From Sporopachydermia quercuum (Eukaryota), in NCBI GenBank assembly GCA_001599295.1, contig BCGN01000001.1:1240001-1304000 (forward strand): a stretch of 64,000 bases of DNA, read 5' to 3'. The notes under the pieces were generated by a model that saw nothing but the letters and a program-made list of their open reading frames with translations, did no database searches and was not told where the DNA came from. Position numbers and translations under genes: made by a program. How positions within the stretch are numbered: the stretch's first letter is position 1; each line of letters begins with the position of its first letter. Shown here in pieces: positions 2,561 to 26,788 of the stretch.

Positions 2561-4273
2561 TTAGGCTTTTGATTCATCAATTGAAGTGCTTGATGACTTT
2601 TCAATGAATTCATCCTTAACTTCGCCCTTAGGATTTGAAAAATCAATTTCTGGCACAGTGTTCTCGGTAAGACCTAGCTCCTCGTAGATTCTGGCCATTC
2701 TAGCATTATCAGCGGCACCAGTGCCGGAATCATCATGGAATAATTCATCAATTTCTTCTAAGGTTCTTCCCTTGGTTTCAGGAAGGAAGAACCATACGTA
2801 GAAAGCACTCAAGAACGAAATGATACCGAAGAAAATGTAAGCACCATAATGCATAGTCTTGAACATATCAGATGTAGCCATTGCAACAGCAAAGTTATTC
2901 AACCAATTTGAAGAGGCACCAATTGAAACACCCTTAGCACGAACACCAAGTGGGAAAACCTCAGAGACGACAATCCAAGCGCAAGGACCCCATGAGTAAC
3001 CGAAATTACAGACGAAAATCCAACAGAAGACGACAGCTACCCAACCGGCACCAGAATGATTATCAAAATCACCCCAGAAAGAACCAGCAATACCAGCATC
3101 AACGAATAAACAAACAGCCATACCCAGTGAACCAGCAATCAATGTCGGTTTTCTTCCCCAGCTGTCAACATACATAACAGTAGGAATAGTGAAGACAAAC
3201 ATACAAATACCGACGACACCAGAGGCTAACAGAGAGATAGAGCTTCCAGTCAATCCTAAATCCTGAAAAATAAATGCTGCATAATAAACGATACCATTGA
3301 CGCCAGACCATTGTTGGAACATCATAGTAAGAACGGCAACTAAGGTTCTCTTTCTTAAGCCTGGATGAACAAAAAGTCTCTTGTATGAGTTGTAACCTAA
3401 TAGGAAGTTTGATTTTCTTGAACCATCTTGATAATCGGGGAATAACTCTCTTGATGTTTCAAGATCGAAGATACGTTGCGCCTTAATTTCTAAAAATTCA
3501 ATTCTAATAGATTCATCGCTGATTGGGAGATTTCGAAGTCTAGCGATGGTCTCCAGGGCTTCTTCTTCAAGTCCTCTATTAACTAACCATCTTGGAGACT
3601 GGGGCATGAACATGATACCAACACCGAGGACGAATGCTGGAGCAATTTGAATACAAATAGGAATCAGCCAAGCAGCATTACTTTGTCCTTCTCCTGTTCC
3701 TCCAATGTAGTTAGTTCCGTAACCAATCCAGTACGAAACCATAATACCAAAAGTAATAGAAAGTTGTTGTAAAGCAACTAGAGCACCTCGAATTTCTGGG
3801 GGTGATAACTCAGCATTGTATAAAGGTACGATCATTGACAAGGAACCTACACCCAGACCAGTGACGAATCTACCTCCATAGATATAGTCAGCGTTTTGAG
3901 CACAGGCTTGTACAATTACACCCACAATGAAGACAACCACACCAACCACGGTACATAGTTTTCTACCAAGAGCATCTGCAAGATAACCATTTGCTAATAC
4001 ACCAACCCAGGCTCCCAGTTCCAAAATTGAAGTCAATAGACCTCTTGTGGTTGGATTGCTGATGTTTTCGACATGAATCCTTTGCTGGAAAGAATGCATA
4101 TTCATGATTTGACCAAACATACCTTGGTTATAACCATAAACAAAACCACCAAGGGATGCAAAAATTGCGATAGCGAAAACCTTAGCATTATTGAATAGAC
4201 CTTTGACACCTACTGGCTTGTCTCCCCTTTTACTAGCTAAGGCAGAGATTGGTTGTGAACTAACAGCAACCAT
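2561..4273 (-). CDS. MFS sugar porter, XUT1/XUT3-like putative pentose (xylose) transporter, copy A
   Basis: 570-aa multi-TM ORF with sugar-porter motifs (ADALGRK, PQSPRWL, QQWSGVN, VDSWGRK, PETKG). FASLGGFVYGYNQGMFGQI, GLLTSILELGAWVG and YGTNYIGGTG resemble Scheffersomyces stipitis Xut1 as I recall it. Substrate is inferred from family and neighbours. Confidence 0.9.
   Translation of the reverse strand: MVAVSSQPISALASKRGDKPVGVKGLFNNAKVFAIAIFASLGGFVYGYNQGMFGQIMNMHSFQQRIHVENISNPTTRGLLTSILELGAWVGVLANGYLADALGRKLCTVVGVVVFIVGVIVQACAQNADYIYGGRFVTGLGVGSLSMIVPLYNAELSPPEIRGALVALQQLSITFGIMVSYWIGYGTNYIGGTGEGQSNAAWLIPICIQIAPAFVLGVGIMFMPQSPRWLVNRGLEEEALETIARLRNLPISDESIRIEFLEIKAQRIFDLETSRELFPDYQDGSRKSNFLLGYNSYKRLFVHPGLRKRTLVAVLTMMFQQWSGVNGIVYYAAFIFQDLGLTGSSISLLASGVVGICMFVFTIPTVMYVDSWGRKPTLIAGSLGMAVCLFVDAGIAGSFWGDFDNHSGAGWVAVVFCWIFVCNFGYSWGPCAWIVVSEVFPLGVRAKGVSIGASSNWLNNFAVAMATSDMFKTMHYGAYIFFGIISFLSAFYVWFFLPETKGRTLEEIDELFHDDSGTGAADNARMARIYEELGLTENTVPEIDFSNPKGEVKDEFIEKSSSTSIDESKA
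3761..4048. repeat. 288-bp block identical to 8787-9074 (transporter paralogues)
   Basis: By-eye comparison shows a constant offset of 5026 and no mismatch. Further identical blocks are 3680-3741 = 8706-8767 and 4092-4165 = 9118-9191. Confidence 0.9.
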
Positions 4274-7589: not shown

Positions 7590-9305
7590 TTATGCTTTTT
7601 CATTAGCTTCGCTAGAATTGATACTGCCATTATCATGAGAAGTACTTGGCTTGACGCTGACGTTATAATATGAATCTGGTAAGGTATTTCCAACAAATCC
7701 CATTTCTTCCCAAATTCTAACCATTCTCGCAGCATCAGCAGCACCAATACCGGAATCATCTCTGAATAACATATCCATTTCTTCAAGAGTCTTATTCTTA
7801 GTTTCAGGAACAAAGAAAAAAATGTAGGCACCGCCTAATAGACAGAAGCAACCGAACCAAATGTAAGCACCATATCTCCATGAGGCAATCATATCAGAAG
7901 TTGACATTGCAACAACAAAGTTGTTCAACCAATTTGAAGAGGCACCAATTGAAACACCCTTTGCTCTGTAGGCCAATGGGAAAACTTCGGAAACGACAAC
8001 CCAAGCACAAGGACCCCATGAGTAACCGAAATTAACAACATAAATCCAAATGAATACAACAGCTACCCAACCGGCACCGGAATGATCGTCGAAAGAGTAC
8101 CAAAATGAACCAGAGATACCAGCAACAATAAAATGACAAATGGCCATACCAATAGAACCAGTGATCAGAGTCTTCTTCCTACCAAAATTATCAACAAACA
8201 GAACAGTTGGAATAGTAGCAAGGAAGTTAACAATACCGACAACACCAGAAGCTAACAAAGAAATGGTATTACCAGTTAATCCTAAATCTTGGAAAATAAA
8301 TGGTGCATAGTATAAAATAGCATTAATACCAGACCATTGTTGGAACAACATAGTAAGCACTGCAACTAAGGTTCTCTTTCTCAAACCAGGATGAACAAAC
8401 AATGCCTTGTAGTCGTTGTAACCAATCAAAAAGTTAGATCTTCTTGAACCATCTTGATAATCTGGATACTTTTCTCTTGCTGATTCAACGTCAAAAACAT
8501 GTTGAGCCTTCATTTCTAAAAATTCAATTTTAATTAATTCATCATCAGCCGACCTGTCTCTAAGGTAACAAATAGTGTCTAAAGCTTCTTGTTCACGGTT
8601 TTGGTCCATGAGCCATCTTGGAGATTGGGGCATAAACATAATACCAAAACCAAGGATCAATGCAGGAGCAATTTGAATACAAATAGGAATCAACCAAGCA
8701 GCATCACTTTGTCCTTCTCCTGTTCCTCCAATGTAGTTAGTTCCGTAACCAATCCAGTACGAAACCAGAATACCAAAAGTAATGGCAAGTTGTTGTAAAG
8801 CAACTAGAGCACCTCGAATTTCTGGGGGTGATAACTCAGCATTGTATAAAGGTACGATCATTGACAAGGAACCTACACCCAGACCAGTGACGAATCTACC
8901 TCCATAGATATAGTCAGCGTTTTGAGCACAGGCTTGTACAATTACACCCACAATGAAGACAACCACACCAACCACGGTACATAGTTTTCTACCAAGAGCA
9001 TCTGCAAGATAACCATTTGCTAATACACCAACCCAGGCTCCCAGTTCCAAAATTGAAGTCAATAGACCTCTTGTAGTGGGATCTCGGATCGTTTCAACGT
9101 CAATCTGNTGTTGAAAGGAATGCATATTCATGATTTGACCAAACATACCTTGGTTATAACCATAAACAAAACCACCAAGGGATGCAAAAATGGCAATAAG
9201 AGAAACTTTTTTGTTTGAAGCAAAAGCATGGAAGCCAACTTTTCCAGCAATAGCAGCCCGCTTGTCAGCAAGACCTTTCGGTAATGTGCCCTCTAATTCA
9301 GTCAT
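7590..9305 (-). CDS. MFS sugar porter, XUT1/XUT3-like putative pentose (xylose) transporter, copy B
   Basis: 571-aa tandem paralogue of 2561-4273 with the same motifs. The N-terminus KRAAIAGKVG resembles Xut1. It contains one ambiguous base (n). TATATAAA lies on the minus strand at 9543-9550. Confidence 0.9.
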   Translation of the reverse strand: MTELEGTLPKGLADKRAAIAGKVGFHAFASNKKVSLIAIFASLGGFVYGYNQGMFGQIMNMHSFQXQIDVETIRDPTTRGLLTSILELGAWVGVLANGYLADALGRKLCTVVGVVVFIVGVIVQACAQNADYIYGGRFVTGLGVGSLSMIVPLYNAELSPPEIRGALVALQQLAITFGILVSYWIGYGTNYIGGTGEGQSDAAWLIPICIQIAPALILGFGIMFMPQSPRWLMDQNREQEALDTICYLRDRSADDELIKIEFLEMKAQHVFDVESAREKYPDYQDGSRRSNFLIGYNDYKALFVHPGLRKRTLVAVLTMLFQQWSGINAILYYAPFIFQDLGLTGNTISLLASGVVGIVNFLATIPTVLFVDNFGRKKTLITGSIGMAICHFIVAGISGSFWYSFDDHSGAGWVAVVFIWIYVVNFGYSWGPCAWVVVSEVFPLAYRAKGVSIGASSNWLNNFVVAMSTSDMIASWRYGAYIWFGCFCLLGGAYIFFFVPETKNKTLEEMDMLFRDDSGIGAADAARMVRIWEEMGFVGNTLPDSYYNVSVKPSTSHDNGSINSSEANEKA

Positions 9306-12300
9306 TATGAGGATATAGGGCTATATGTGTTATTTGTAATATTTTTTCTTCCAGTAGAATATGGAATATTTATAGTAAATGTGAATAGTAGTTTTTGATT
9401 TATCCTTTAAGGGGATTTAGTCTCTAGAAGTGTTTGTTTATAAGTCGTAGTCAATCAAATATTGATTTAATAGTATATGAATGAAAATAAGTAAGAATAG
9501 GAATATAAGTAAAACTGGTGTGAACATAGAGAAGAAAACCTCTTTATATACTTTTTAAATATGACCATTCTTTTAGACGTAGATATTATAATAAACTGTA
9601 AATTGAAGGAGCGGAAGAACAAGCACTTCGACTCGAAAGTTCAATGAATACTAATTGTAGTGATTAAGTGAGCCAAACGAAGTAAGGTTTAGACACTGGA
9701 AAAACTATTGAATCTTATTTTTATTTCAGTAGTTATCTTGGTAATAAAGTTTTCTACTATTACCATTTTCATGTCTATCCCTGACTCACTAGTCCAGGTC
9801 ACACCAATGACGAAGGCTAAAGGGTCTGTGTTTACCTCGTTCGCTCGGAGCTCTATTAATAGGAAAGTGTCTGTTCCATTCTCCCCACCTTTACCAGATA
9901 TTTAAGATTATACTTGGTTTTTCAGTTCGTGCCCCATGTATTTTACATGGTTGTTAACTATGAAAGGGGGTAGAGTGAGTTTTAGGAGTTGGAGTGTCTC
10001 GTTTATTGGCTTAACCATCCTTTTCACTAATGTTTTCTAAAATTTCTATTTCGGAAGAATTACTTGGTTTCTCAACAGTATTATTCTAGTTAAAGTTTAT
10101 CATTGAATCAAGCTACATAGCAACCACCATTAAATCTTGTATTTAGATTATTCTTAACTGGCTTAACGGGAATTCTAGTACATCCTAACTCTTTGTAGTT
10201 TCTTCCTTCCCCATTTACTTACTCTCAACCCCATAAAACTTAACAGGGTCTGCGTCGTTCTTTATTACCCCAGATTAATAATTCGGAGCTTTAAGGTTAG
10301 CATGAAACCCTATTAAGGTTTGATTCTTCATTCATCATATGCTTGTTGTTGCACCTCTAACCAACTCAATGCATCACCGAATGATGTCGAAAAGAAAGAA
10401 AAAGAAAGAAATGCATAAAGGAACTTTAATAACAAGGATATCAACGGAAAAAATCGTTCTGGTTAGCTGATATTGAATAAAATGTAGTAGGTGTTGCTAT
10501 ATAGTCGCTTCAGATTGGGAAGTCAATGAAGATTTTTGAACTGTGTATCTGAGGGGGAAATATAAGAGTAGTAAGTCTTGTAATGCCAAATGAAATCTTT
10601 CGTTGCATATGTATAAAACTGAAATCTGCTTATTTTATCCTTTGATAGAGAGTCCGTTAATAGATTTGAATGTTACTTATTGCTATCATTCTTAGCTACC
10701 ATCACGCCTGTCCAATACCATGTCTACCATATCTTGCTTCGAAAATATGAAGTTAGGACTTGATATGTTTTCTTTCAAAACCTTCCCATAAATGTCTGAA
10801 ACGGTAACTACTCACCCACGAATGAGTATAGCTTTCCTCTGGCTTTTTTTATACCCCTACATAATTGTGCTGAATATCGATTAAATGCTCAGTTATTGGA
10901 TTATACGAGAATATTACTCTTGGACGTTAGTTAGAAGATAGGAACCGTTTCCCAGTTTTTTCATAGCTTAATAATAAAGTGGAGTAATTCAACTACGTCC
11001 TAAATATATCAACATCTTCTGATACTTAGATGTCACACATCAAATCGCAACGATACAAATTAAATATACAGATATATTTGGTAACATAGGAAAAATACCT
11101 TTCATAGAAAATGTTCCATAGATGATTAATTCTTAAACAAATAAATGTTATCATTAGTTTTGAGGGGAACTTTGCTGCTACGTTATAGTACCAGGTTATA
11201 CACTGAACTAATGAATCTGATTTCCAGTCACCAATTGACCCTTGTAGCCATTGTCTGAGTTCCCTAATTGACGATAGGACTTCAAAGAGCATGGTACCAT
11301 GGATGTGAATTGTATGTACATCGAATCAGTAATCTTCATATAGCCACTCAATTCAATTCCGTAGAATTTTAGAAATTAAGATACATCTTACAATTAGCAT
11401 TTAATAATAGACATATCGAATCATTTTTGGTGACAACAGTAATGCTATAATCAAATTGTAAAACGGACAAACCATCACTCTTCTATGGATTTCCTATCAC
11501 CAAATTACTGTCCAACATAAGGAAGCGATCATACCGGAGTAAAGCTTCATTTGATAATATGAACCTAAATAATACTCTCTTGAAAATGGATGCTAGCCAA
11601 GATATGATGTCATGAAATCATTCCTGTTCTACATGGAAGTTCTTAGATTCAAAGCTTCATATTGATGTTCCGATGGCCCAAACTAAGCCTTGTCAAACTC
11701 GAAAAAATTAGGGTGATGCTGAAAATTTTGAGAAAGGGTCTGAGGAGATGAGGTTTTGCTGCAATGGTCCTCGTTTTGAATAATAACACCTGAACGTTAA
11801 CAAGATGTGCTTGTATCAAAAAAAGGAAGAAACAGTTGAACAAAGTACTGTTAGCTTAACTCAAACTTGAAAACAAGCAATCATTATTTTTGGTAATCGA
11901 AGTATTATATTATGAACTTTTGATTTTGATGAAGGTATTCAAGAATTCTCTCAGGTGATTCATAGAGTTTTAGCGTGGAGTCAGGAAATAAAACATTTCC
12001 ATCATTTAAACTTAATCTTGTAAGGCTAAGGCAACATAAAGTTTGAACTTTAAAAATAGTTTTTCCGGTTTTCATAATATGAGGGGTCTGGCATTCGAAG
12101 CTGAAATAGTGAATCGAAACAATAATTTTTTGGGGTCAAATCATCAGAAAGTCGTGAGATTATAAAACCTTCAAATGACTGAAATTAGCTAATAAGTATT
12201 TCTTGACATTAAAGTTGCTGCTTTTGACATTTTAGTAAGCTTTCAACTGAAACCACTGCGGAACAACCGTTTCGTTCTTAATTTCGTAACTTTTCATGTC

Positions 12301-14240
12301 TGGCGAAAATGTAATTCCCATTTGTAACGAATAGATCAAGTATAGAAGATATCTGAAGCCAAGAGTACCAAGGTATATTTAGTGTTCTGGACATCGAGTA
12401 ACCAATATTGGGCTGAAACTTGTTCAACATGCAACTCTCCACTTGAAATTAACGCGAACCTTAACGCTAACGTTCAAGATACTCCGGATTAAATCTGTAG
12501 AATTTTTCCGAAATGGTTTCACTTCTATAATCATCAAATCAAATCCTAGATCTGAAGTAGCCTAGCTGAAATTCTCTTTTCTTAAAGTATGTTATCAATC
12601 AAATTGAAGCGGGGATTTGAAAATTTAAATTGTCCACAACTACTTGCCGAGTTCGGGCAGCTTTTCATTTATATCAAAATACAGAAGTATTATTTAAGGG
12701 AACTAGAATAATTACGGAAGCTCAACCTGTTGCCGTACACTGATTTGATTGAACTTATTCATCAATATGGGATTTTCGACATTATCAGCCAGTATTCAAA
12801 TCGAACTGCTGTTTTTACTTCTTAGTCAAAGATTGTATCTTCTCTGGTTCAGAAAGCTTAATTTAGCAAGAATCACAGGACTAACTCAAATAGTTAAACC
12901 CCTTGAATTTTCATTGGGTAGAGGATGTCAGACTACTTTTACTTTTCTTTCCGGCAAACAGTAACCAGTCTCGGAAAAATATTATTTCTAATAAAAGTCA
13001 TCCTTTTGATGGTAAGTTCTTAGACCCTTCAATACGACCACGCATTCGATTGGATTATCTATCAGTTTAATTCTAATCATCAATAAAACCAATTTTCCCT
13101 TGTGCCATTGTTAGTTAGACTCGATAATGTTCAATAAGAACTTTATCAATGTGTTGCAAGCTTCTATGTTGCCACATTGATTTCTGCAAAACAATTCGAT
13201 TCCACCCTCATTTACCCACTTCAGCATTTTATGACAATTAGTTAAAACATAGTTGGTTATAAGTGAAATTACTGGCAAGCTCTGAATTGATAACCCAATC
13301 AACTAACCCAATAAACTAACCCAAAAATACCAAACTAATTTCCAAAGTAAATAAAATACTTTAATAGAGTCTAATTAAAAGTGTTGTCGAATTTGAGCTT
13401 ATGAGCTTAATCAATCAAATAATTTATATAAGGCTAAGCAAACTGTTCCCCCGGATTAACTCATGTAAAGTTTGATTGAATTATTCCGCTAGTCTCACTA
13501 TCATTGAATTAGTAAGAAAGAGCTAAATATCATCGATAAATGATAATCCATGAATCAATTAGTTAATATAAGTACATGTCATTCAAAGCATCTAAACAAA
13601 TTGCTTAGTGATAAATAGTACAATCAATTAATTGTACATTATAATCCAAATGGCCTCTTCCTGAATTTATATGAGAACTACTTTCAACTCAAAAAAGACA
13701 ACAGAAAATGGCTACACTGAGCTGTGGACTATCACTGAAGGGATTTTGTTATTTGGTTAGCTTTGTTTTAATTACCGACTGAATTGCTATCGCTGATAAT
13801 AAATTCATCTATCTTTACATATGGAGTTAAATTGAACCTACAGGAGCACCCCAAGTGTTCCATCATCAATCCAAAAATGCGATGTTCATTGAACAAATAA
13901 TACTTCAAAGTAACAGAAAAGTACAATCGAATCATCGTAGAATCGTCATAGAACCACTTGATCTAGAGTAGTGTTCTTATATTAATAAACTCTTTTCAAA
14001 GAATAGTTCAGTTTATTTTTCCCGCTTAATGAAAAGAAGAAACTACCCACATTATTGTACACCCCAGTTGTTTACTTCTTTTTGTGCAAGAGTTCTGAAC
14101 TTCCTTGGAATAAATGCATTTGTAGCACCATCTCCTTAGGCATATCAACTAGAAAGCTCTCATACTTTGTGAGAAATCACATTACTATATTATTCTACTA
14201 TCTCTTTCAACGCAACCATCGTATTCAACGTACGAACCTT

Positions 14241-14306
14241 CCCCAGAAATTATCGCGAGATAACCCCAGAGAACCCCAGAGAACCCCAGAAACGCTTTAG
14301 TCTAAA
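14241..14306 (-). promoter_or_regulatory. Array of four CCCCAGA (CTGGGG, Mig1/CreA-type) motifs plus TTTAGTCTAAA palindrome
   Basis: CCCCAG occurs at 14241, 14264, 14274 and 14284, the last three with a 10-bp period. An interrupted palindrome follows at 14296-14306. The array sits in the transporter B / XYL1 divergent intergenic region. Confidence 0.6.
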
Positions 14307-15348
14307 CAAAGTTCTTGCTTATTTATCCTCTACGGGTTGCAATTGCAATAAAGTTACTATGCCAAACTTTATTGATAATATTTTAAGTTCATACTTATGT
14401 AGGGCAAACAGGAGATTACATGAAATTGCATATGATAAGAATTATGTTATCAGATACTACCTACATTATTAAGTTAAGGTTGAAGCTACGTACGTGCATG
14501 TGGAGTTGTTAAGTCTGAATGATAGAATAACGCCACTCGAATGTGATTGCAGATATGATTGTTATTACATGACAAGAAAGAAAGAAGATAATAACACAAA
14601 GGTAGTATCTCTGGATAAAGAAAGATCTATAGGCTATTATAGACCATAACAACATAGATTAGAAAGTATCAAAAAAATAGGAGAAGTAGCTGTAAAGCGA
14701 TTGGGAAGTACCTCCTCTACGTTTTACATAGCTAAAAAGGATTAATATAGAAACTTAGGCTTCTATGATATATTTTGTATACATAATTACTTAATAAACT
14801 CAGAACTTTTAAGGACAACGCTTCTCAGTATTGCACGGGTCAATTAATCAACCTTCCATGTACTCACATTGAATTATTTCCGAGCTTATTAAAATGAACA
14901 TAACTTTAAAGTTCGATTAAACCCGGTGACTGATAATCCTTCAAGTGCCATTTTCTCCATCCTTATACTAAGAATCAGAAGAAAAAGACTCCGATAAGTT
15001 CCTCCTGACCTATTACAAAGAAATATTTCTTTTTTAACTTTTTTGGTCTGACATCTTTTGTGGGGTTTCTGATATTTGTCTATTGCTAAGGCTCTTAATA
15101 CTTTTGACACCTTGTTGAATAGAGTTTACCAGTCTGAAGAATAAACCCGAGATTCTTTTGTCGCTATTAGAACAATTCGCAAATCATGTACTGTCATCTT
15201 AGAGAGAGGGATTTAGTGAAGAAGCTCCATAAATCAACTATTAGCGTATTCTATATCGAGGTTATATGTTCAATCAATAGTGTGCCATTATCACTCTTTG
15301 GTCAGTTTATCTTTCTTAAGTCAAGAAGAAGATTAAAGTTCAAAAACA

Positions 15349-15458
15349 CGGAGTAATTAGGTATTTTTTATACCTTATCCCCAAATCTAACCTTACCGGA
15401 ATAATACTCTTACTTGTGATGCTCAAGTGCCCTAACAATAAAATCAGTCCGGGGTAAA
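15349..15458 (+). promoter_or_regulatory. Three CGG-N2-TAAW motifs about 50 bp apart, candidate UAS of XYL1
   Basis: CGGAGTAAT (15349), CGGAATAAT (15397) and CGGGGTAAA (15450) lie on the same strand, 400-510 bp upstream of the ATG. CGG triplets are typical Zn2Cys6 half-sites. Confidence 0.45.
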
Positions 15459-15689
15459 ATATCCAAAACTTTTTCCGAACTAAGCACCAAACAGCCAACA
15501 TTTTGATGCCTTTAAAGCCTGTATCCCTAAGAAGTGACATACAAATCTAGCACCCCGTCTATAGTACTCGAATAATCTTTCAACTCATAATAGAGCCTAA
15601 AGTTCAAATCTCGCTAACGTCTCCGTACTAATCCACCCATTGTCACTCACTCATTCAAAAAGGAGGACTACATAGAGAATTTATTATTA

Positions 15690-15697
15690 TATATAAA
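15690..15697 (+). promoter_or_regulatory. TATA box of XYL1
   Basis: TATATAAA about 160 bp upstream of the ATG, followed by a pyrimidine-rich leader and an AAAAATG start context. Confidence 0.6.
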
Positions 15698-15855
15698 GGC
15701 ATAGAGTTCCAAAAAATAGACCTATATACCCTTGAAAGATTCCTTGTTTGCTACTAATAGTTTTCTGGTTCTTCCCATTTTTACCTTGCCTACTAATAGA
15801 TCACTGTTGATTAATATCTATAGACTGTAATACTACTAAATTATACACTTTAAAA

Positions 15856-16827
15856 ATGACTGCTGCTGAATCATACACAGTTCTTCCATCAGGATCTAAA
15901 ATGCCATTGATTGGCTTGGGTACTTGGAAGATCCCCACCGAAAAGGTCGCCGATACTGTCTACAACGCTATCAAAATTGGTTACCGTCTTTTTGATGGTG
16001 CTGAAGATTACGGCAACGAGAACTTATGCGGTGAAGGTGTCAAGAGAGCAATTGACGAAGGTATCGTTAAAAGAGAAGATCTGTTCATCACTTCCAAGTT
16101 ATGGAATACTTTTCACCATCCTGATCACGTCATTGATGCTTGTAAGAGATCTTTGGAAGATTGGGGCTTAGAATACTTTGATTTATTCTTGATTCATTTC
16201 CCCATTTCTTTGAAGTATGTTGATCCTGCAGTTAGATACCCTCCTGGCTGGAACTACGACGTTGAAAAAGGCACCATTGAATTCGAAGACGTTCCAATCA
16301 TTGATACCTGGAGAGCTATGGAGAAATTAGTTGAATTGGGGCTCGTCAAGAACATTGGTGTTTCTAACTTTTCTGGTGGTCTTCTTTATGACCTTATGAG
16401 ATCAGCTACTATCAAACCTGCTTCTTTACAAATTGAACACCATCCTTATTTAGTTCAAAAGCCTTTAGTTGATTACGCTTTAAAGAGTGGAATTGCTGTC
16501 ACTGGTTACTCCACTTTTGGACCTGCTTCTTACATTCAATTAGATCACGGTCAAGGTGTCGCCAGAGTTACTGAGTTGGAACCAATTAAGAAGATTGCTG
16601 AGAAATACAACAAGAGTCCTGCTCAAGTCGTCTTAAGATGGGCTACTCAAAGAGGTATTCATGTTAACCCCATGTCGACAACTGAGAAGTACTTAAAGGA
16701 GAATCTCAATACATTAGATTTCAACCTCACTGAAGAAGAATTATCAACAATCAGTGGTTATGATAGGAACTTCAGATTCAACGATCCTTATGACTGGCCA
16801 CCAACTGGTTTACCTATTTTTGTTTAA
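15856..16827 (+). CDS. XYL1: D-xylose reductase (aldo-keto reductase family 2B)
   Basis: 323 aa with AKR tetrad D47, Y52, K81 and H114. Xylose-reductase signatures are GYRLFDGAEDYGNE, LIHFPISLKYVDPAVRYPPGW, LQIEHHPYL, RFNDP and the C-terminal LPIFV. Confidence 0.93.
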   Translation: MTAAESYTVLPSGSKMPLIGLGTWKIPTEKVADTVYNAIKIGYRLFDGAEDYGNENLCGEGVKRAIDEGIVKREDLFITSKLWNTFHHPDHVIDACKRSLEDWGLEYFDLFLIHFPISLKYVDPAVRYPPGWNYDVEKGTIEFEDVPIIDTWRAMEKLVELGLVKNIGVSNFSGGLLYDLMRSATIKPASLQIEHHPYLVQKPLVDYALKSGIAVTGYSTFGPASYIQLDHGQGVARVTELEPIKKIAEKYNKSPAQVVLRWATQRGIHVNPMSTTEKYLKENLNTLDFNLTEEELSTISGYDRNFRFNDPYDWPPTGLPIFV

Positions 16828-17620
16828 AAAGGTAAATGAATTTTGGTGAGATTAATGAGTTTAGATAATACATACTTATAATACATACTTATAAATTAAA
16901 TGACATTTTATGATTATTTGATTAATTGAATGTAGAAAAATAGAGCAGTAGTCGATTAAACTGGGATCACCACAGGCAAGACAAGGAGGGAAACTTAGTT
17001 TTTCATTGTATTTGTGTTCAGGTGAAATTCTAAGAAACATATCATTAAGATGTGATTACGCTATGTTTATAATATGTTTACATGAATGATCATTCAACCA
17101 ATTTATATTTTCTGTATCCTATTTTCATCCCTTTTGCAATTTCAGAAATTCAAACGGATTATAAGTTCTGATAGCGAGTGCTAAAAACAGTAGGAGATGA
17201 ATGCATGACTTAAATTCTTGAATCCTTAGAGAGCTTGAATGTGATCTGACGTCTTAGAATGAAAAATCATACTACAGAATTTTTGTGTTCTACTTAAGTG
17301 CTATTAAAGATCTCATTATAGAATCATTTTACACGTTTGATGAACTTGTATTTGTTCTTAATCATTACGAAAGAAAGGAAGGAATGCCATCATATCATAA
17401 ACTCATNTCATCTCATCTCATCTCATCTGACCGTTGATCTAACAGACTCCAACAGATCACATACTTTTATAGTACTGACAGAAACTACGAATACGATCCT
17501 ACATCATACTCCATATTTTCATTCATTTATTCATATAAACAACTTATCTCATAAATACAAATAAATATATACGTACACATTACATACACATATCTCATCA
17601 TCTAATTCTATGCAACAAAT

Positions 17621-18688
17621 TTACTCAGGTCCATCAATGATAAGCTTAATAGCCTTTCCTTGTAGAACGGTCTTGAAGCCTTCTTCACATTCATCAAACT
17701 TGATTCTATGAGTGACAAGCTTTTTAACATCAATCTTACCAGAAGCAATTAATTCGACAGCACGTGGATAATCACCATCATAGTATCTGAATGAGCCCTT
17801 GAGAGTCAATTCCTTAGCAGCAACTTGAGCAATTGGGAAATTGACTTCATCTTTACCCATACCAGCTTGAACCATGACACCACCAGCTTTCAAAACATGG
17901 ACTGCAGCAGCAATTGAAGATTCAGCACCAGAACATTCCAAAGCAACGGTTGGCTTGAATCCGAGTTGAGCTTCAATCTTCTTAGCAGTTTCAACAGCGC
18001 TGTCATTCTTATCAACAACGTAACCATCAGTGGCGCCGAAATCTAAAGCAAACTTGACTCTGCTCTCAACGATATCAACAATTGCAACTCTGGTAGCACC
18101 ATAAGCCTTAGCTGTCGCAGCACATAATAAACCAATGGGACCAGCCCCGAATACAACGACTTTTGACCCAAAAGTGACGCCCGCAAGTCTATTAACGTGA
18201 ATACCAACTGATAGAGGTTCAACTAATGCACCCTCTTCTAATGAAACATTTTCTGGTAATTTAACACAGAAATCTTCCGGTAATAAATAAAATCTGGCTA
18301 ATGTTCCGTCATAAGGAGGAGTAGCAGCAAATGCCATATGAGGGCATAAGTTATATTTACCGGCTTTATATTCTTCAGAGTACCTTGATGGAATACCTGG
18401 TTCCATGGCGACTCTATCGCCAACTTTCAATGATGTAACTGCTGATCCAACTTCTGTGATAATACCTGCTGATTCATGACCAAGAACCATTGGTGCTTTA
18501 ACAATAAAATCACCAATTGATCCATGGGTATAGTAATGAACATCTGAACCGCAGATACCAGTCTTCTTCACTTCTACTTTAACATAGTGAGGATCCTTAA
18601 TTTCAGGAATTGGTCTATCTTCATAAGTTACATCATGAACCTTTTTAAGGACAAATGATGGATTTTTCATTGATTTGATATCGGTCAT
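17621..18688 (-). CDS. XYL2: NAD+-dependent xylitol dehydrogenase (MDR family)
   Basis: 355 aa. Catalytic Zn ligands are in CGSDVH and GHE, the Rossmann motif is GAGPIG, and VDIV carries the NAD-type Asp. EPGIPSRYSEEYKAGKYNLCPHMAFAATP lacks three structural-Zn cysteines, as in yeast Xyl2. Confidence 0.93.
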   Translation of the reverse strand: MTDIKSMKNPSFVLKKVHDVTYEDRPIPEIKDPHYVKVEVKKTGICGSDVHYYTHGSIGDFIVKAPMVLGHESAGIITEVGSAVTSLKVGDRVAMEPGIPSRYSEEYKAGKYNLCPHMAFAATPPYDGTLARFYLLPEDFCVKLPENVSLEEGALVEPLSVGIHVNRLAGVTFGSKVVVFGAGPIGLLCAATAKAYGATRVAIVDIVESRVKFALDFGATDGYVVDKNDSAVETAKKIEAQLGFKPTVALECSGAESSIAAAVHVLKAGGVMVQAGMGKDEVNFPIAQVAAKELTLKGSFRYYDGDYPRAVELIASGKIDVKKLVTHRIKFDECEEGFKTVLQGKAIKLIIDGPE

Positions 18689-20863: not shown

Positions 20864-22609
20864 ATGACTGACCTCTTCCTTGGATTCGACTTATCAACGC
20901 AACAAATAAAAGCAGTTGTTGTTGATGAAAATCTAAAGCAATTCTATCAGAACTTTGTGGAATTTGATTCCGACACCCCAAGCTATAATGTGTCAAAAGG
21001 AGTCTATAAAAACTCAGCCGACAATTCAGTTTATGCTCCAGTTGCAATGTGGATAGATGCTTTAGAGATCCTATTAACCAAAATGAAAAATGATTCGTTC
21101 CCTTTCAATCGAGTGAAAGCTATCTCTGGAGCTTGTCAGCAACATGGATCTGTTTTCTGGTCAAAAGGNGCTGAAGAAATCCTCCATGATCTTAACCCAA
21201 ATGTGCCTTTGACTCCACAACTTTCTCCAAACGCTTTGGCTCATAAATATAGTCCTAATTGGCAAGATCATAGTACTCCTACTGAATGCGCTGAATTTGA
21301 AGCAGCCGTTGGTGGAGCCGAGGAATTATGCAAAATAACAGGCTCTAAAGCTCACCATAGATTCACTGGTCCTCAAATCCTCAAATTCAAAACTCAACAT
21401 CCTGATAGGTACGCTTCAACTTCTCGTATCGCTTTAGTATCATCATTCCTTACATCAATATTTCTAGGCAAACTTGCACCATTGGATATTTCCGATGTGT
21501 GCGGGATGAATCTATGGGATATTAAGAAATCTGAATGGTTGGATCCTATTATCACATTGACTGCTGGCTCTTCCGATGCGAGTATCAAGCAAGAATTGCT
21601 TGATAAATTAGGNCCAGTTGATAAATCACCAGAAAAATCATTAGGAACCATTTCCAAGTACTTTATCGAAAGATACGGATTCCCGGAAGACTGTGCTATA
21701 TCTAGTTTCACTGGTGACAATCCAGGAACTATTCTAGCTTTGCCTTTACAATCATCAGATCTGATGATATCTTTAGGTACATCAACAACTGTTCTATTAA
21801 CAACCGATCAATATGTTCCTAATGCATCATATCATGTATTTGGGCACCCTACAACTAAGGGTCTGTATATGGGTATGGTTTGCTACTGCAATGGTTCACT
21901 TGCAAGGGAGGAAGTTCGCAATGATATTAACAGTAAGTACAACATTAATGCTCCTCATCATTCGCCTATTAAATGGGAGAAGTTCAATCAGTTGGCTCTA
22001 TCAACACCAGCTTTTGGCAAAAAAAGTGGAGATTCACTTGCAAAGCTCGGAATTTATTTTCCATTAGCAGAAATAGTTCCAGATGCTGCTGCTGGTATTC
22101 ATCGTTATGAGTTTGACGACCAATCAAAGGATAAAGAATTCACTCTGGAAACAGATAATACATTGTGGAGTTTGCCTGATGATGATGCAAGAGCTATTAT
22201 TGAATCCCAAGCATTAAGCATGAGACTCCGAGCCGGCTCAATGCTTTCAGGAGAATCTGGCGATGCAAGACCCGGAAGATTGTTTTTCGTTGGAGGAGCA
22301 AGTAAGAATGAAGCTTTATGTAAAGTCATGTCTGAAGTTCTAGCCCCAAAACACGGTAGTTGGAGAGTTGAATTAGCAAATGCTTGTGCAACTGGTGCTG
22401 CCTATAAAGCAGCCTGGGTCGGATTATATAAACCTGGTTGGAGTTTTCAAGATATGATGAATGAGAAGTTTGATATGAATGAAGAAGGTCTCATTGCTAG
22501 AATTGACGGTGATGTTACCGATGAGCAAAGGCAGAATAATTGGAATACTTATGCTATTGGGGTTGAAGCTTTGGAGAAAGCTGAAGAATTATTACCGCAG
22601 AGTGTTTGA
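20864..22609 (+). CDS. XKS1: D-xylulokinase (FGGY family, eukaryotic type)
   Basis: 581 aa with LGFDLSTQQIK, ISGACQQHGSVFW, SPNWQDHST, GSKAHHRFTGPQI, FTGDNP, SLGTSTT, CYCNGSLARE and FVGGASKN. Also known as XYL3. Confidence 0.95.
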   Translation: MTDLFLGFDLSTQQIKAVVVDENLKQFYQNFVEFDSDTPSYNVSKGVYKNSADNSVYAPVAMWIDALEILLTKMKNDSFPFNRVKAISGACQQHGSVFWSKXAEEILHDLNPNVPLTPQLSPNALAHKYSPNWQDHSTPTECAEFEAAVGGAEELCKITGSKAHHRFTGPQILKFKTQHPDRYASTSRIALVSSFLTSIFLGKLAPLDISDVCGMNLWDIKKSEWLDPIITLTAGSSDASIKQELLDKLXPVDKSPEKSLGTISKYFIERYGFPEDCAISSFTGDNPGTILALPLQSSDLMISLGTSTTVLLTTDQYVPNASYHVFGHPTTKGLYMGMVCYCNGSLAREEVRNDINSKYNINAPHHSPIKWEKFNQLALSTPAFGKKSGDSLAKLGIYFPLAEIVPDAAAGIHRYEFDDQSKDKEFTLETDNTLWSLPDDDARAIIESQALSMRLRAGSMLSGESGDARPGRLFFVGGASKNEALCKVMSEVLAPKHGSWRVELANACATGAAYKAAWVGLYKPGWSFQDMMNEKFDMNEEGLIARIDGDVTDEQRQNNWNTYAIGVEALEKAEELLPQSV

Positions 22610-23959: not shown

Positions 23960-26021
23960 CTAAGGCGCTATACCATATCCTCCACCAGTCCATCTATAAA
24001 CAGCCAAAGCTTCTTTCCGTTTTCTACTCAATTCTTCCTGTGATTCAGGGTCATTTGCATTTCCCACCGCAGCATTTGCATGCCTCAATGCTGCCCGCAT
24101 TATATTCCGTGATGTTCTCATATATTCTGCAGTCAAAGTTACAATACACACTTCATGAGCTCTTACTACAATTTCACATGCTCTCCTCATTTCATTCCCG
24201 AGTCCACTTCCGAGCCGATCGACCATATATAGTAGAATGGTACTTGCAGGAGAGAACAAATAAATTCCAGTGAAGAACGGCATAAGCCGAAGGTCGGAAT
24301 CAGTCGCCAGCACGGAATCCAAACATTCCGAAGCTTGAATTGCATGTGAAGACGCGATCCGAACTTCGGGCGAGTTCACCCATTCAGGCGGAGCATTCAA
24401 TAATTCTATCGGATCCCACGGAATGTTTAGTAGTATATGGAACACATGTACTAAATACATAGCATAGTCCTTCCAAGCTTCGGAATACTCCGAGAACACC
24501 ATTTCGCCGTTAATTGAACTCCGCGAATGCTCCTGCAAACGATTTGTTCTAGAAAAGCCTTTTAAAGATCTTGTATAGACTGCTAATTGGGTCTCTACCT
24601 GTGCTTTCACGTAATCACGATAATTCCTAGGTAACAATTGTACTGGCTGTTCACATAGTAAATGGGTAGTCACCATTCCCCCGAGAATCATCATTAAAGG
24701 TAAAAAAAATCCGAAAATGCCCTGGGATGATATACTAAACGAGATTCCGCAAGCTCGGGCCGAATCTTCTTCTGCCGGTTGTAAAGGGAACCGCGTTGAA
24801 TGATTCCATAAGGCATCGTCCTGAGGATGATAGAGATCTTTGCATTCAGCATCTAGTAGAGCTAAAGGCTGGTCGAAACAGAATCCTAAATGTCTGTCAA
24901 TCATATAAATGATCCACCAAGCTCTTCTTCTTTCTTCCCGAACTTCTTCGGGTAAAGTTGCAACTTCCATGTTAAGCTTGCTCTCACGTGCCAATCCTTG
25001 GGCTGTTTTCCACCATTTCATAGAAGCTCCTTTGAATTCTGAAGCCGANGCAACCGTCCCGAGCTGGATACACGTGATCACATCATCTAGTCCCGGTTCC
25101 ACTTCTGAGTTAGGCTGGTCTCTGTCCCGGCCAGGCTTGAACTTTTGGCCGAGCGATGAGTTTCTAGGATATCCTGCTTGTTGTAACGGAAGAGATAACT
25201 CTACCGCTAACTCAAACAGTTTAGTGGTGATAGCGTAATGATTAGACGGTACACATGTCAAATAGGGATGATGCGATCCGTGTACTGCTACCAACAATAA
25301 AGCACATAGTAGGGAAGCCGAAGTTGGTCTCGGATTCTCTTTGGACAGGATAGACGACTTACGTACAATGTATGCTAGTACATAAGGAGAATGGTCAAAA
25401 TATGACTCTAGAAGATCACACGCCACGTCCATCGGTAGAGAAATTTGGTCCAAATAAGGCAGCAGCGGCTCAAAAACCGGGTATCGCATATCTTGGCCAG
25501 CGTTCCGTGTACCGGGAGACGAAGAAGTAACCGACCCGTTAGTATCTGGAGGGTTATTTGCCGACATAATTGAATTCGAGCTATTAGGTTGAGGAATATT
25601 AGTGGATGATTGTGGGCCGTTTGGGGTTCCCGAGTTTAATGATGCCGTTGGTTGTTTTGTATTTATTGCAAATGACGACTTATGCCGAGATCCATACCGA
25701 ATAGAGTTTGCTTGAGCAGCTGAGCCGGAAATTGATCCGTATTGATCTACTGGGGGTGCGTACCGTAGACCAGGGTCATTTACTAAATCCATCATTGAGG
25801 ACCCGAAAGCTTCCGAGTTCTGTAAGTCCGTTGCATTTGGAGTTCNGCCGGATATAGCATAGAACGGAGATGGTAGATTCGGGTCGGTTAACATGTCGGT
25901 TGAATCACGCGGCGTTCGGCCTGTTCGATCCACATTGAATAGAAAAGAATCCATCTCATCTGGACCATTCGAAATCGAAACTTGCGATTGCTGTGCTTGT
26001 TGTGCTTGTTGGTGCTGATGG

Positions 26022-26052
<31 letters not shown>

Positions 26053-26788
26053 GATTGGTGAGTTGGCCGGAAGTCATTCGAGAAGAAGCGGAGGATCCCG
26101 GAGATAGAAAGCTTGATTGTGATTCTGGAGAGCCTTTCGGGTCGGAGATCAATTCCATTAAAAGATTATTTGGCATTTGCTGATTTGACTCTATTGGTAA
26201 CCCTGGGTTATCTGGACCTTGAGCCGAACCCATTGACTGACCGGTACCAGTTTGAAGTTTATGAACTCCGTTCAATCCAACACGATCCGCAGGTGGTAGG
26301 CCCATATCGGCAGCAACTGGAACGCTTCCCGAGGTATTTCCAGCAAGCAAACCTTGAGGTATTGAGGCAACACCAGTCATTGGAGCTACAGCTCCTCTAT
26401 CCGATTTCTCTTTCATTTCTTTTTCCTTTTGCTGTTGCAACAACATTGCTTGACGTTTACTAGTGTAAGATTCCGAAGCTCTGCCCCTCTTCCGAGGTTC
26501 TCGTGAATATTCGCATTTGATTTTAACTCTTACACAGTGATGACAAGGAAATGCACCATCACATTTCGTTCTCCGTTGGTTACATTGATCACATGCTCTA
26601 GCCACGCGCTTTGACTTTTTTGGTTTCGGCACATCCGAAGAAAACAAATCCATAGGTTCATCTGATCTCTCCGGAGACCTCGGCTTATTTTCATTCCCCA
26701 TCGAGTTCTCTCCACCTTGGCTTTCGATTTGACCTGATCCTGTCCCAGAAGACATGCCAGGAACTGATGCGCTCATATCGAAGGACAT
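23960..26788 (-). CDS. xlnR: XlnR/Xyr1-like Zn2Cys6 xylanolytic / pentose-catabolism transcriptional activator
   Basis: 942 aa, no intron needed. The zinc cluster [22 protein letters not shown]...[81 protein letters not shown] and C-terminal [11 protein letters not shown] are all XlnR/AraR-family signatures. Confidence 0.88.
26024..26053 (-). repeat. (CAA)10 microsatellite encoding poly-Gln in XlnR
   Basis: Ten uninterrupted TTG triplets on the + strand, within a Q/H-rich segment. Confidence 0.95.

What the first reader, a model, noticed from the sequence alone, without database searches (positions are those of the whole stretch)
16666..16692. Xylose reductase lacks the NADPH 2'-phosphate residues: candidate natural NADH-preferring XR
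Seen: codons AAC CCC ATG TCG ACA ACT GAG AAG TAC give RGIHV-NPMSTTEKY-LKEN (M273 at 16672, T275, Y279), with no ambiguous base. Established: the AKR motif is IPKS; S. stipitis XR reads IPKSNTVPRLLEN, where K270, N272 and R276 shape NADPH 2'-phosphate binding. K270M/R, N272D and R276H are classic engineered mutations that lower NADPH preference. Here all three positions differ (K to M, N to T, R to Y) while the catalytic tetrad is intact. Inference: an evolved NADH-shifted XR of biotechnological interest. Caveats: the Glu implicated in NAD ribose binding (SFVE in other XRs) appears to be Gln here (SYIQ), and K270M also reduced efficiency in engineered enzymes.
Basis: partly seen in the sequence, partly recalled or inferred. 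Interest (0 to 1): 0.88.

Follow-up and report, generated by a model that had tools for sequence, protein, structure and literature searches.

The report
Xylose reductase with rebuilt cofactor pocket
A budding-yeast xylose reductase gene, sitting in a cluster with the next two xylose-pathway genes, has lost the residues that normally grip the extra phosphate of NADPH, so it may use NADH instead, but only an enzyme assay can show that.

Summary
Window 15856-16827 (+) is an intact 323-aa aldo-keto reductase. Its best solved relatives are the S. stipitis and C. tenuis xylose reductases (E 5e-113 and 7e-109). The conserved IPKS-N-x3-R stretch reads NPMS-T-x3-Y, and the NAD-ribose Glu is Gln.

These changes are rare. 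Lys is present in 119 of 119 fungal homologues and 80 of 80 metagenome loci. Glu and Ile are each present in 118 of 119.

The catalytic tetrad, the nicotinamide and pyrophosphate contacts and the sugar-pocket residues are all kept. The changes are confined to the adenosine 2'-phosphate subsite.

The gene has the strongest codon bias in the window. It lies beside an NAD+-type xylitol dehydrogenase, a xylulokinase, two sugar transporters and a Zn2Cys6 regulator.

Loss of NADPH preference is therefore likely. "NADH-preferring" is not shown:
- Engineered K270M/K274M enzymes bind both cofactors worse, and C. tenuis K274M still favours NADPH about 5-fold.
- The Glu that binds the NAD ribose is gone.
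- A neighbouring Lys278 might still reach the phosphate.

No close relative exists in any collection searched, so conservation of the variant could not be tested. Verdict: a new natural variant of a known enzyme kind, and a good, cheap candidate for kinetic testing.

The parts
15856..16827 (+). XYL1-type xylose reductase gene (323 aa plus stop), AKR family 2
   Evidence: ORF found. Pfam Aldo_ket_red E 2.4e-49. PDB sequence hits 5z6t 5e-113 and 1jez/1k8c/1mi3 7e-109. AF2 model pLDDT 95.4, with C. tenuis XR at TM 0.96-0.97.
16666..16692 (+). Variant cofactor motif N271-P-M273-S-T275-T-E-K278-Y279, which replaces I-P-K-S-N-x-x-x-R
   Evidence: Sequence and alignment. Family counts: K 119/119, I 118/119, N 89/119 (T 15), R 96/119 (Y 2). 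K in 80/80 metagenome loci.
16660..16662 (+). H269 codon. Homologues have Ala in 112 of 119 and His in none.
16525..16539 (+). A224-S-Y-I-Q228, which replaces Q219-S-F-V-E223 of S. stipitis XR (loop over the adenosine ribose)
   Evidence: alignment. E in 118/119 and Q in 0/119. At 224: Q 71, A 32 of 119.
15994..16197 (+). Span holding the catalytic tetrad codons: D47 (15994-15996), Y52 (16009-16011), K81 (16096-16098), H114 (16195-16197)
   Evidence: sequence. All four are invariant in 119/119 homologues and present here.
17621..18688 (-). XYL2-type xylitol dehydrogenase (355 aa), convergent with the XR gene. Keeps the Asp of the NAD+ site (VDIVESR against VDIFDNK).
   Evidence: Pfam ADH_N and ADH_zinc_N. 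Best PDB sequence 7y9p xylitol dehydrogenase, 1.5e-107, with the alignment printed.
20864..22609 (+). XYL3-type xylulokinase (581 aa), divergent from the XDH gene
   Evidence: Pfam FGGY_N/FGGY_C. Human xylulokinase 4bc2 at 2.8e-95.
2561..4273 (-). Sugar transporter paralogue 1 (570 aa)
   Evidence: Pfam Sugar_tr 2.4e-115. 77% identical to paralogue 2 over 533 aligned residues.
7590..9305 (-). Sugar transporter paralogue 2 (571 aa)
   Evidence: Pfam Sugar_tr 4.3e-117.
23960..26788 (-). Zn2Cys6 transcription factor (942 aa) next to the xylulokinase gene. Candidate cluster regulator by inference only.
   Evidence: Pfam Zn_clus and Fungal_trans. The Atlas gives only generic fungal transcription-factor clusters.

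Best explanation
This is the working xylose reductase (XYL1) of a clustered xylose pathway in an isolated budding-yeast lineage. Its adenosine 2'-phosphate subsite has been rebuilt without charge.

Shown: the fold, the catalytic tetrad, the nicotinamide and pyrophosphate contacts and the sugar pocket are canonical. The residues that hydrogen-bond or salt-bridge the NADPH 2'-phosphate and ribose in solved XRs are replaced as follows:
- Lys -> Met273
- Asn -> Thr275
- Arg -> Tyr279
- Gln -> Ala224
- Glu -> Gln228
- Flanking changes: Ile -> Asn271 and Ala -> His269

Inferred:
- Removing both cations removes most of the binding energy specific to NADPH.
- Neutralising Lys and Glu together removes two charged partners that both touch the ribose, loosening coenzyme binding overall.
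- The enzyme therefore no longer prefers NADPH. At cellular coenzyme levels it draws at least as much on NADH as on NADPH.
- This matches the NAD+-dependent xylitol dehydrogenase encoded 0.8 kb away and would ease the redox imbalance of the XR-XDH route.
- Higher Km values for both coenzymes than in canonical XRs are expected.
For: Identity as an XR:
- PDB sequence hits to XRs at 5e-113 and 7e-109.
- AF2 model pLDDT 95.4; best structural matches are C. tenuis, D. nepalensis and S. stipitis XRs at TM 0.94-0.97.
- Inside the XR clade with support 0.979.

Selective remodelling, not decay:
- Of 119 columns conserved at 90% or more, the protein keeps 110. Four of its 9 departures (Q228, H269, N271, M273) lie in the adenosine subsite or on the strand just before it, and a fifth (Y226) is two residues before Q228. 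Others in the set have up to 17 departures.
- D47, Y52, K81, H114, S170, N171, Q192, Y218, S219, F221, S225, W24, D51, W83, F115 and N309 are all canonical.

Functional importance:
- Highest Fop (0.64) and near-lowest ENC (36.7) of the 18 window genes; the XDH gene has ENC 36.4.
- Clustered with an XDH that keeps the NAD+-site Asp, a xylulokinase, two transporters and a regulator.

Structural roles of the replaced residues: PMC6261992, PMC7068945, PMC9427786.

Mutant precedent:
- K270S/S271G/N272P/R276F, which also lacks both cations and has an aromatic residue at 276, prefers NADH 13-fold (PMC2213684, abstract and passages).
- R276H gives kcat 6.8 s-1 with NADH against 0.3 s-1 with NADPH.
- C. 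tenuis K274M is predicted to use NADH 1.5 times as fast as NADPH at physiological levels, against 0.54 for wild type (PMC3334502 Table 1).
Against: - No kinetics exist for this protein.
- K->M alone leaves C. tenuis XR NADPH-preferring (Rsel 0.18) and raises both Km values.
- The Glu that makes bidentate bonds to the NAD+ ribose is Gln here. Randomising Q219 and E223 gave no NADH-improved mutant.
- The protein lacks the Asp at position 272 and the Arg at position 270 seen in described natural NADH-using XRs.
- S274, T275 and Y279 hydroxyls and Lys278 (next to Y279) could still hold a 2'-phosphate. C. thermophilum XR, with Thr at 276 and Ile at 280 but Arg at 277, remains more efficient with NADPH (PMC6337131).
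- No model coordinates were available to measure these distances.
- No close relative was found, so conservation of the variant is untested.
- Whether the genome holds a second, canonical XR is unknown, because no genome is held.
- The Fop figure uses an S. cerevisiae optimal-codon list recalled from memory. ENC does not depend on it.
Confidence: 0.5

Rival explanations
1. A functional xylose reductase that still prefers NADPH, or binds both coenzymes weakly without real NADH preference. The phosphate would be held by hydroxyls (S274, T275, Y279) and by Lys278 instead of the canonical Lys/Arg pair.
For: - C. tenuis K274M keeps a roughly 5-fold NADPH preference (Rsel 0.18).
- S. stipitis K270M weakens both coenzymes.
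- C. thermophilum XR lacks Asn276 and Arg280 yet is more efficient with NADPH, with a relocated Arg277 proposed to bind the phosphate.
- Lys278 sits beside Y279 on the helix predicted at residues 277-284.
- The NAD-ribose Glu is lost.
Against: - Here four phosphate or ribose contacts are changed at once, not one.
- A quadruple mutant that is similarly uncharged reverses preference 13-fold toward NADH.
- There is no Arg at the 277-equivalent position, which is T276 here.
Confidence: 0.3
2. A diverged or impaired AKR whose main job is no longer xylose reduction. It could be under relaxed selection, or recruited to another carbonyl substrate, with another XR elsewhere in the genome doing the pathway step.
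For: - Second-longest ingroup terminal branch (0.575), with an unresolved, near-basal position in the XR tree.
- 9 departures from conserved columns against a median of 2.
- K270M enzymes lose 80-90% of specific activity (PMC2213684 passage citing Kostrzynska 1998).
- XYL1 paralogues are common in yeasts (PMC10263009 passage).
Against: - The ORF is intact and the tetrad and sugar-pocket residues are all kept.
- Strongest codon bias in the window.
- It sits in a cluster with XDH, xylulokinase and transporters.
- A slow housekeeping protein, YME1, also has no relative above 72% identity, so the long branch reflects the lineage.
Confidence: 0.12
3. Sequencing or assembly artefact at the motif.
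For: None found.
Against: - Contigs of three runs from two studies are identical over 15700-17000, though they may be the source data.
- The differences need many separate base changes in several codons spread over about 170 bases.
Confidence: 0.01

Closest known systems
Candida tenuis xylose reductase AKR2B5 (PDB 1k8c NADP+, 1mi3 NAD+) and Scheffersomyces stipitis XR (5z6t)
   Same: - Same fold (TM 0.95-0.97, rmsd 1.2 A).
- Same catalytic tetrad, nicotinamide and pyrophosphate contacts and sugar-pocket residues.
- Same length, and no indel near the motif.
   Different: - About 53% identity to C. tenuis XR (my count on the alignment; Foldseek gives 51-54% for the C. tenuis and S. stipitis XR chains).
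- KSN-x3-R reads MST-x3-Y, IP reads NP, the Glu over the ribose is Gln, and Q219 is Ala.
Engineered NADH-shifted XRs: S. stipitis K270M, K270R, N272D, R276H, K270S/S271G/N272P/R276F; C. tenuis K274M, K274R/N276D
   Same: The same positions are altered. Met at the Lys site equals K270M/K274M. The loss of both cations with an aromatic residue at 276 resembles the 13-fold NADH-preferring quadruple mutant.
   Different: - This is a natural sequence.
- It combines changes never tested together.
- It also changes E223, I268 and the Ala two residues before it, which engineers left alone or found unproductive to change.
Natural NADH-using XRs: C. parapsilosis XR, Spathaspora passalidarum XYL1.2, C. 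intermedia XR2, Sc. xylosifermentans XR
   Same: They are natural departures from KSN-x3-R linked to better redox balance on xylose.
   Different: Those enzymes keep a cation at the Lys site (Lys or Arg), and two of them add Asp at 272 (KSD, KGD-x3-H). None is reported with Met, Thr and Tyr or with Gln for the ribose Glu. Their preference is measured; this one's is not.

Membership tests
Aldo-keto reductase superfamily / family 2 xylose reductases | (alpha/beta)8 AKR fold | tested here: met
   Pfam PF00248 E 2.4e-49. AF2 pLDDT 95.4. XR structures at TM 0.94-0.97.
Aldo-keto reductase superfamily / family 2 xylose reductases | Catalytic tetrad Asp-Tyr-Lys-His | tested here: met
   D47, Y52, K81 and H114 are present. 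Each is invariant in 119/119 homologues.
Aldo-keto reductase superfamily / family 2 xylose reductases | Sugar-pocket residues of solved XRs (Trp20, Asp47, Trp79, Phe111, Asn306 in S. stipitis numbering; the residue list is partly recalled) | tested here: met
   W24, D51, W83, F115 and N309 are present, each 119/119 in homologues.
Aldo-keto reductase superfamily / family 2 xylose reductases | Sequence identity rule of the AKR nomenclature (above 40% for a family, above 60% for a subfamily; rule recalled) | tested here: inconclusive
   About 53% identity to AKR2B5. At most 63% to any protein found, a Lipomyces homologue. The protein is clearly family 2; subfamily 2B by the 60% rule is doubtful.
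Aldo-keto reductase superfamily / family 2 xylose reductases | Conserved Ile-Pro-Lys-Ser tetrad and KSN-x3-R coenzyme motif | tested here: not met
   The protein reads NPMS and MST-x3-Y. The motif is defined in PMC7068945 and PMC3953602.
Aldo-keto reductase superfamily / family 2 xylose reductases | NAD(P)H-dependent reduction of D-xylose to xylitol | not testable with these tools
   Only context supports it: XDH, xylulokinase and transporters in one cluster.
Natural NADH-preferring xylose reductases (functional class) | Measured kcat/Km higher with NADH than with NADPH | not testable with these tools
   No kinetic data exist for this protein, and no paper on such a variant was found.
Natural NADH-preferring xylose reductases (functional class) | Sequence signatures reported for the class: Arg for the motif Lys (C. 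parapsilosis) or Asp at position 272 (Sp. passalidarum XYL1.2, C. intermedia XR2) | tested here: not met
   Met273 and Thr275 are found instead.
Natural NADH-preferring xylose reductases (functional class) | Glu that hydrogen-bonds the 2' and 3' hydroxyls of the NAD+ adenosine ribose (Glu227 of AKR2B5) | tested here: not met
   Gln228 is found here. Glu is present in 118/119 homologues. Its role is described in PMC9427786.

The most novel reading that the evidence does not exclude
A natural xylose reductase that has discarded the whole NADPH-recognition apparatus of the AKR superfamily: the Lys-Glu pair over the ribose plus the Asn/Arg/Gln phosphate contacts. It has become a truly NADH-specific enzyme by a route no engineer has tried (Asn271, His269, Gln228 and Tyr279 as new ribose or adenine contacts). 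It would have co-evolved with an NAD+ xylitol dehydrogenase inside a XYL1-XYL2-XYL3-transporter-regulator gene cluster, giving a redox-neutral xylose pathway in a budding yeast.
Probability: 0.2. Interest if true: 0.75.

Novelty: new variant of a known kind. Interest (0 to 1): 0.52.

Why it matters
The mismatch between NADPH-preferring xylose reductase and NAD+-dependent xylitol dehydrogenase is the classic cause of xylitol loss when yeasts ferment xylose. Two decades of protein engineering have aimed at exactly the residues that nature has replaced here.

Only a handful of natural XRs with relaxed or reversed preference are known, and all keep a cation at the motif Lys. A natural, apparently well-expressed XR with Met/Thr/Tyr at these sites and Gln for the ribose Glu can be tested directly by expression and a two-coenzyme assay.

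It would be useful in either case. It would be either a new solution for NADH use, or a natural experiment showing how an AKR tolerates loss of the invariant Lys. The tight clustering of the three pathway genes with transporters and a regulator also offers a compact, transferable xylose module.

Tried and rejected
- Whole-genome search for a second XR: no genome is held for this window.
- Close relatives that would show whether the variant is conserved:
  - Full-length search gave at best 63% identity.
  - A search restricted to residues 258-305 gave 1 candidate and none scored.
  - The exact sequence is not in the 15-billion collection.
  - The metagenome scan gave 80 loci with at most 61% identity, none with the variant.
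- Expression: no RNA holder was listed among the sequencing runs.
- Clustering elsewhere: tblastn of the window's XDH, xylulokinase, transporters and regulator against the 80 metagenome loci (flanks up to 3 kb, many contigs short) gave no hit. This says little either way.
- Regulator identity: the Atlas gives only generic fungal transcription-factor clusters.
- CGG-N-CCG sites typical of Zn2Cys6 factors: 21 in the window, mostly inside the regulator's own GC-richer coding region and not in the cluster promoters.
- Earlier notes of this scan: nothing by place, words or sequence.
- Papers not held: the Kavanagh 2003 NAD+ structure paper and the Lee 2003 C. parapsilosis paper. Their content is cited only through passages in other papers.
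- Literature for a natural XR with Met at the motif Lys, or for a XYL1-XYL2-XYL3 cluster in budding yeasts: not found. The Nalabothu 2023 text holds no 'cluster', 'adjacent', 'synten' or 'tandem'. Subscription journals are mostly outside the library.
- A coenzyme-bound model was not made. The tools give no model coordinates and no scored ligand docking, so side-chain distances to the 2'-phosphate were not measured. Complex prediction was not used, because no protein-protein claim is made.
- CUG reassignment was rejected. CTG codons sit at conserved Leu in XR (L76) and in 3 of 3 informative YME1 columns.

Full report
**Observation**

The nine codons at 16666-16692 read AAC CCC ATG TCG ACA ACT GAG AAG TAC. 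They lie in frame in an uninterrupted ORF, 15856-16827 on the + strand, encoding 323 aa (protein P0001).

phmmer against all PDB chain sequences gives xylose reductases as the best hits:
- S. stipitis 5z6t, E 5e-113.
- C. tenuis 1jez/1k8c/1mi3, E 7e-109.
- D. nepalensis 5zci, E 2.2e-108.

In the printed alignment GIHVNPMSTTEKYLKEN lies against GIAIIPKSNTVPRLLEN with no gap nearby. SFVE->SYIQ (E223->Q228) is also confirmed. From the same alignment I read two further changes: Q219->A224 and F236->T239.

None of the window's 15 ambiguous bases lies in this gene. Contigs of three public runs (two samples, two studies) match 15700-17000 with no difference. They may be the source of the window, so this excludes a copying slip rather than giving independent proof.

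**How unusual it is**

I aligned P0001 with 119 of the 120 best homologues from the 5.8-billion-protein search. One 555-aa fusion, P0119, was left out. Residues found in the homologues at the changed positions:

| Position | Here | In 119 homologues |
|---|---|---|
| 273 | Met | Lys 119 |
| 228 | Gln | Glu 118 |
| 271 | Asn | Ile 118 |
| 269 | His | Ala 112, His 0 |
| 275 | Thr | Asn 89, Thr 15 |
| 279 | Tyr | Arg 96, Tyr 2 |
| 224 | Ala | Gln 71, Ala 32 |

Further counts:
- All 80 XR-like loci from the metagenome scan have Lys, and 65 of them have the full K/N/R set.
- I aligned 124 of the 150 AKR cluster representatives from the 1.84-billion library. The 26 longer than 460 aa were dropped. 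Lys occupies the site in 106 of 115 non-gap rows. Arg occurs 4 times, Ser 3, Gln 1 and Met 1.
- The one Met row (P0379) looks like an AKR fused to an unrelated N-terminal piece.

**Where the changes fall**

The protein departs from the majority residue at 9 of 119 columns conserved at 90% or more. Within the set the median is 2 and the maximum is 17. Four of the nine (Q228, H269, N271, M273) lie in the adenosine subsite or on the strand just before it, and a fifth (Y226) sits two residues before Q228.

Everything else that solved structures assign to catalysis or binding is canonical (residue roles from PMC6261992 passages):
- Catalytic tetrad: D47, Y52, K81, H114.
- Nicotinamide and pyrophosphate binding: S170, N171, Q192, Y218, S219, F221, S225.
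- Sugar binding: W24, D51, W83, F115, N309.

An AlphaFold2 model from a 90-sequence alignment is confident (pLDDT 95.4, pTM 0.93). It superposes on C. tenuis XR complexes at TM 0.96-0.97 and rmsd 1.2 A. This pattern looks like focused remodelling of one subsite, not general decay.

**Context**

Pfam and PDB-sequence searches identify the neighbours:
- 17621-18688 (-): a xylitol dehydrogenase (7y9p, 1.5e-107). Its VDIVESR segment keeps the Asp of VDIFDNK that marks NAD+ use.
- 20864-22609 (+): a xylulokinase (human 4bc2, 2.8e-95).
- 2561-4273 and 7590-9305 (-): two sugar transporters, 77% identical to each other.
- 23960-26788 (-): a Zn2Cys6 regulator.

The XR therefore sits in a XYL1-XYL2-XYL3 cluster.

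Of the 18 window genes, the XR gene has the highest Fop (0.64, using an S. cerevisiae codon list recalled from memory). Its ENC (36.7) is near the lowest, next to the XDH gene (36.4). This speaks for high expression.

CTG is read as Leu.

The lineage is isolated. YME1 has no relative above 72% identity. The XR has none above 63%, and the exact protein is not in the 15-billion collection.

In a FastTree of 120 XRs plus 5 outgroup AKRs, the protein lies inside the XR clade (support 0.979). It sits on the second-longest ingroup terminal branch (0.575), and its position is near-basal and poorly resolved.

**What the mutant literature allows**

PMC7068945 (passages) defines KSN-x3-R as the NADPH-specificity motif. 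It reports that C. intermedia XR2, with KGD-x3-H, has equal Km for both coenzymes.

PMC3334502 Table 1 gives these values for C. tenuis XR:

| Enzyme | Km NADH (uM) | Km NADPH (uM) | Rsel (NADH/NADPH) | Predicted physiological rate ratio (NADH/NADPH) |
|---|---|---|---|---|
| Wild type | 38 | 3 | 0.03 | 0.54 |
| K274M | 380 | 75 | 0.18 | 1.5 |

K274M also has a higher kcat with both coenzymes than wild type.

Other results:
- R276H keeps kcat with NADH (6.8 s-1) but drops to 0.3 s-1 with NADPH.
- K270S/S271G/N272P/R276F prefers NADH 13-fold. Its Km for NADH rises 12.8-fold and its Km for NADPH rises 67.8-fold (PMC2213684).
- In the same study, randomising Q219 and E223 gave nothing better.
- Glu227 of AKR2B5 makes bidentate bonds to the NAD+ ribose (PMC9427786 passage).
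- C. thermophilum XR (Thr276, Arg277, Ile280) is dual but more efficient with NADPH (PMC6337131).

**Reading**

Removing the Lys and the Arg, plus the Asn and Gln contacts, should abolish most NADPH-specific binding. I hold it likely (about 0.7 across the first two explanations' overlap) that the strong NADPH preference of ordinary XRs is gone.

Whether NADH is preferred is open, for three reasons:
- The single K->M change is not enough.
- The ribose-binding Glu is lost.
- Lys278 and three hydroxyls (S274, T275, Y279) could still serve a phosphate.

The paired neutralisation of Lys273 and Glu228, both of which touch the ribose in S. stipitis XR, looks compensatory. It predicts looser, faster-exchanging coenzyme binding. 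This is inference.

I put 0.5 on 'uses NADH at least as well as NADPH', 0.3 on 'still NADPH-leaning or an indiscriminate weak binder', 0.12 on 'impaired or re-purposed', and 0.01 on artefact.

**Comparison and novelty**

The protein is a family-2 AKR by fold, tetrad and sugar pocket. It fails the IPKS / KSN-x3-R motif test. It is about 53% identical to AKR2B5 (my count; Foldseek gives 51-52%).

Described natural NADH-using XRs keep Lys or Arg at the motif site, and some add Asp. No paper with a natural Met variant turned up. No paper describing a XYL1-XYL2-XYL3 cluster in budding yeasts turned up either. The library lacks most subscription journals, and supplements were not consulted.

This is a new natural variant of a known enzyme kind. 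It is worth a kinetic test but is unproven.

Noticed in passing
window 2561-26788: The three xylose-pathway genes lie together: XR 15856-16827 (+), XDH 17621-18688 (-), xylulokinase 20864-22609 (+). With them are two 77%-identical sugar transporters and a Zn2Cys6 regulator. I found no description of such a XYL1-XYL2-XYL3 cluster in budding yeasts in the held library.
   Followed up: partly
window 4953, 10204, 19548, 27345 (also 59137, 61650): The 8-mer GGGAAGGA occurs 6 times against 1.09 expected, and 0 of 100 shuffles reach 6. Four copies lie 560-900 bp upstream of the two transporter genes, the XDH gene (in the XDH-xylulokinase divergent region) and the regulator. None lies within 2 kb upstream of the XR gene; there is only one 7-mer match, on the opposite strand, at 14237. 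It is a possible shared cis-element.
   Followed up: partly
window 24001-28000: The Zn2Cys6 gene region is GC-richer (0.45 and 0.41) than the rest of the window (about 0.30-0.39). The gene has weak codon bias (ENC 51.1).
   Followed up: no
window 9108, 17407, 20469, 21169, 21613, 22733, 22947, 25049, 25846, 29612, 34572, 36251, 36302, 37216, 47204: Fifteen isolated ambiguous bases occur in the window. Several lie inside genes: transporter 2, the xylulokinase and the regulator. None lies in the XR gene. They could be heterozygous or masked sites.
   Followed up: no
window 9306-15855: A stretch of about 6.5 kb upstream of the XR gene has no ORF of 100 aa or more in any frame. This is unusually long for a yeast intergenic region.
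   Followed up: no
L065 (metagenome locus), motif region: An XR-like gene reads IPKGDLPEH at the motif. This is the same KGD-x3-H pattern as the dual-specificity C. intermedia XR2.
   Followed up: no
P0379 (cluster representative, 380 aa): This is the only other AKR found with Met at the motif Lys (ITMSTRTEH). Its AKR part follows an unrelated N-terminal segment of about 95 residues, so it may be a fusion or a mis-called gene.
   Followed up: no
window 57124-58164 (-): An alternative oxidase gene (Pfam AOX, 2.4e-103) lies in the same window. This points to a respiratory, non-Saccharomyces-type yeast.
   Followed up: no
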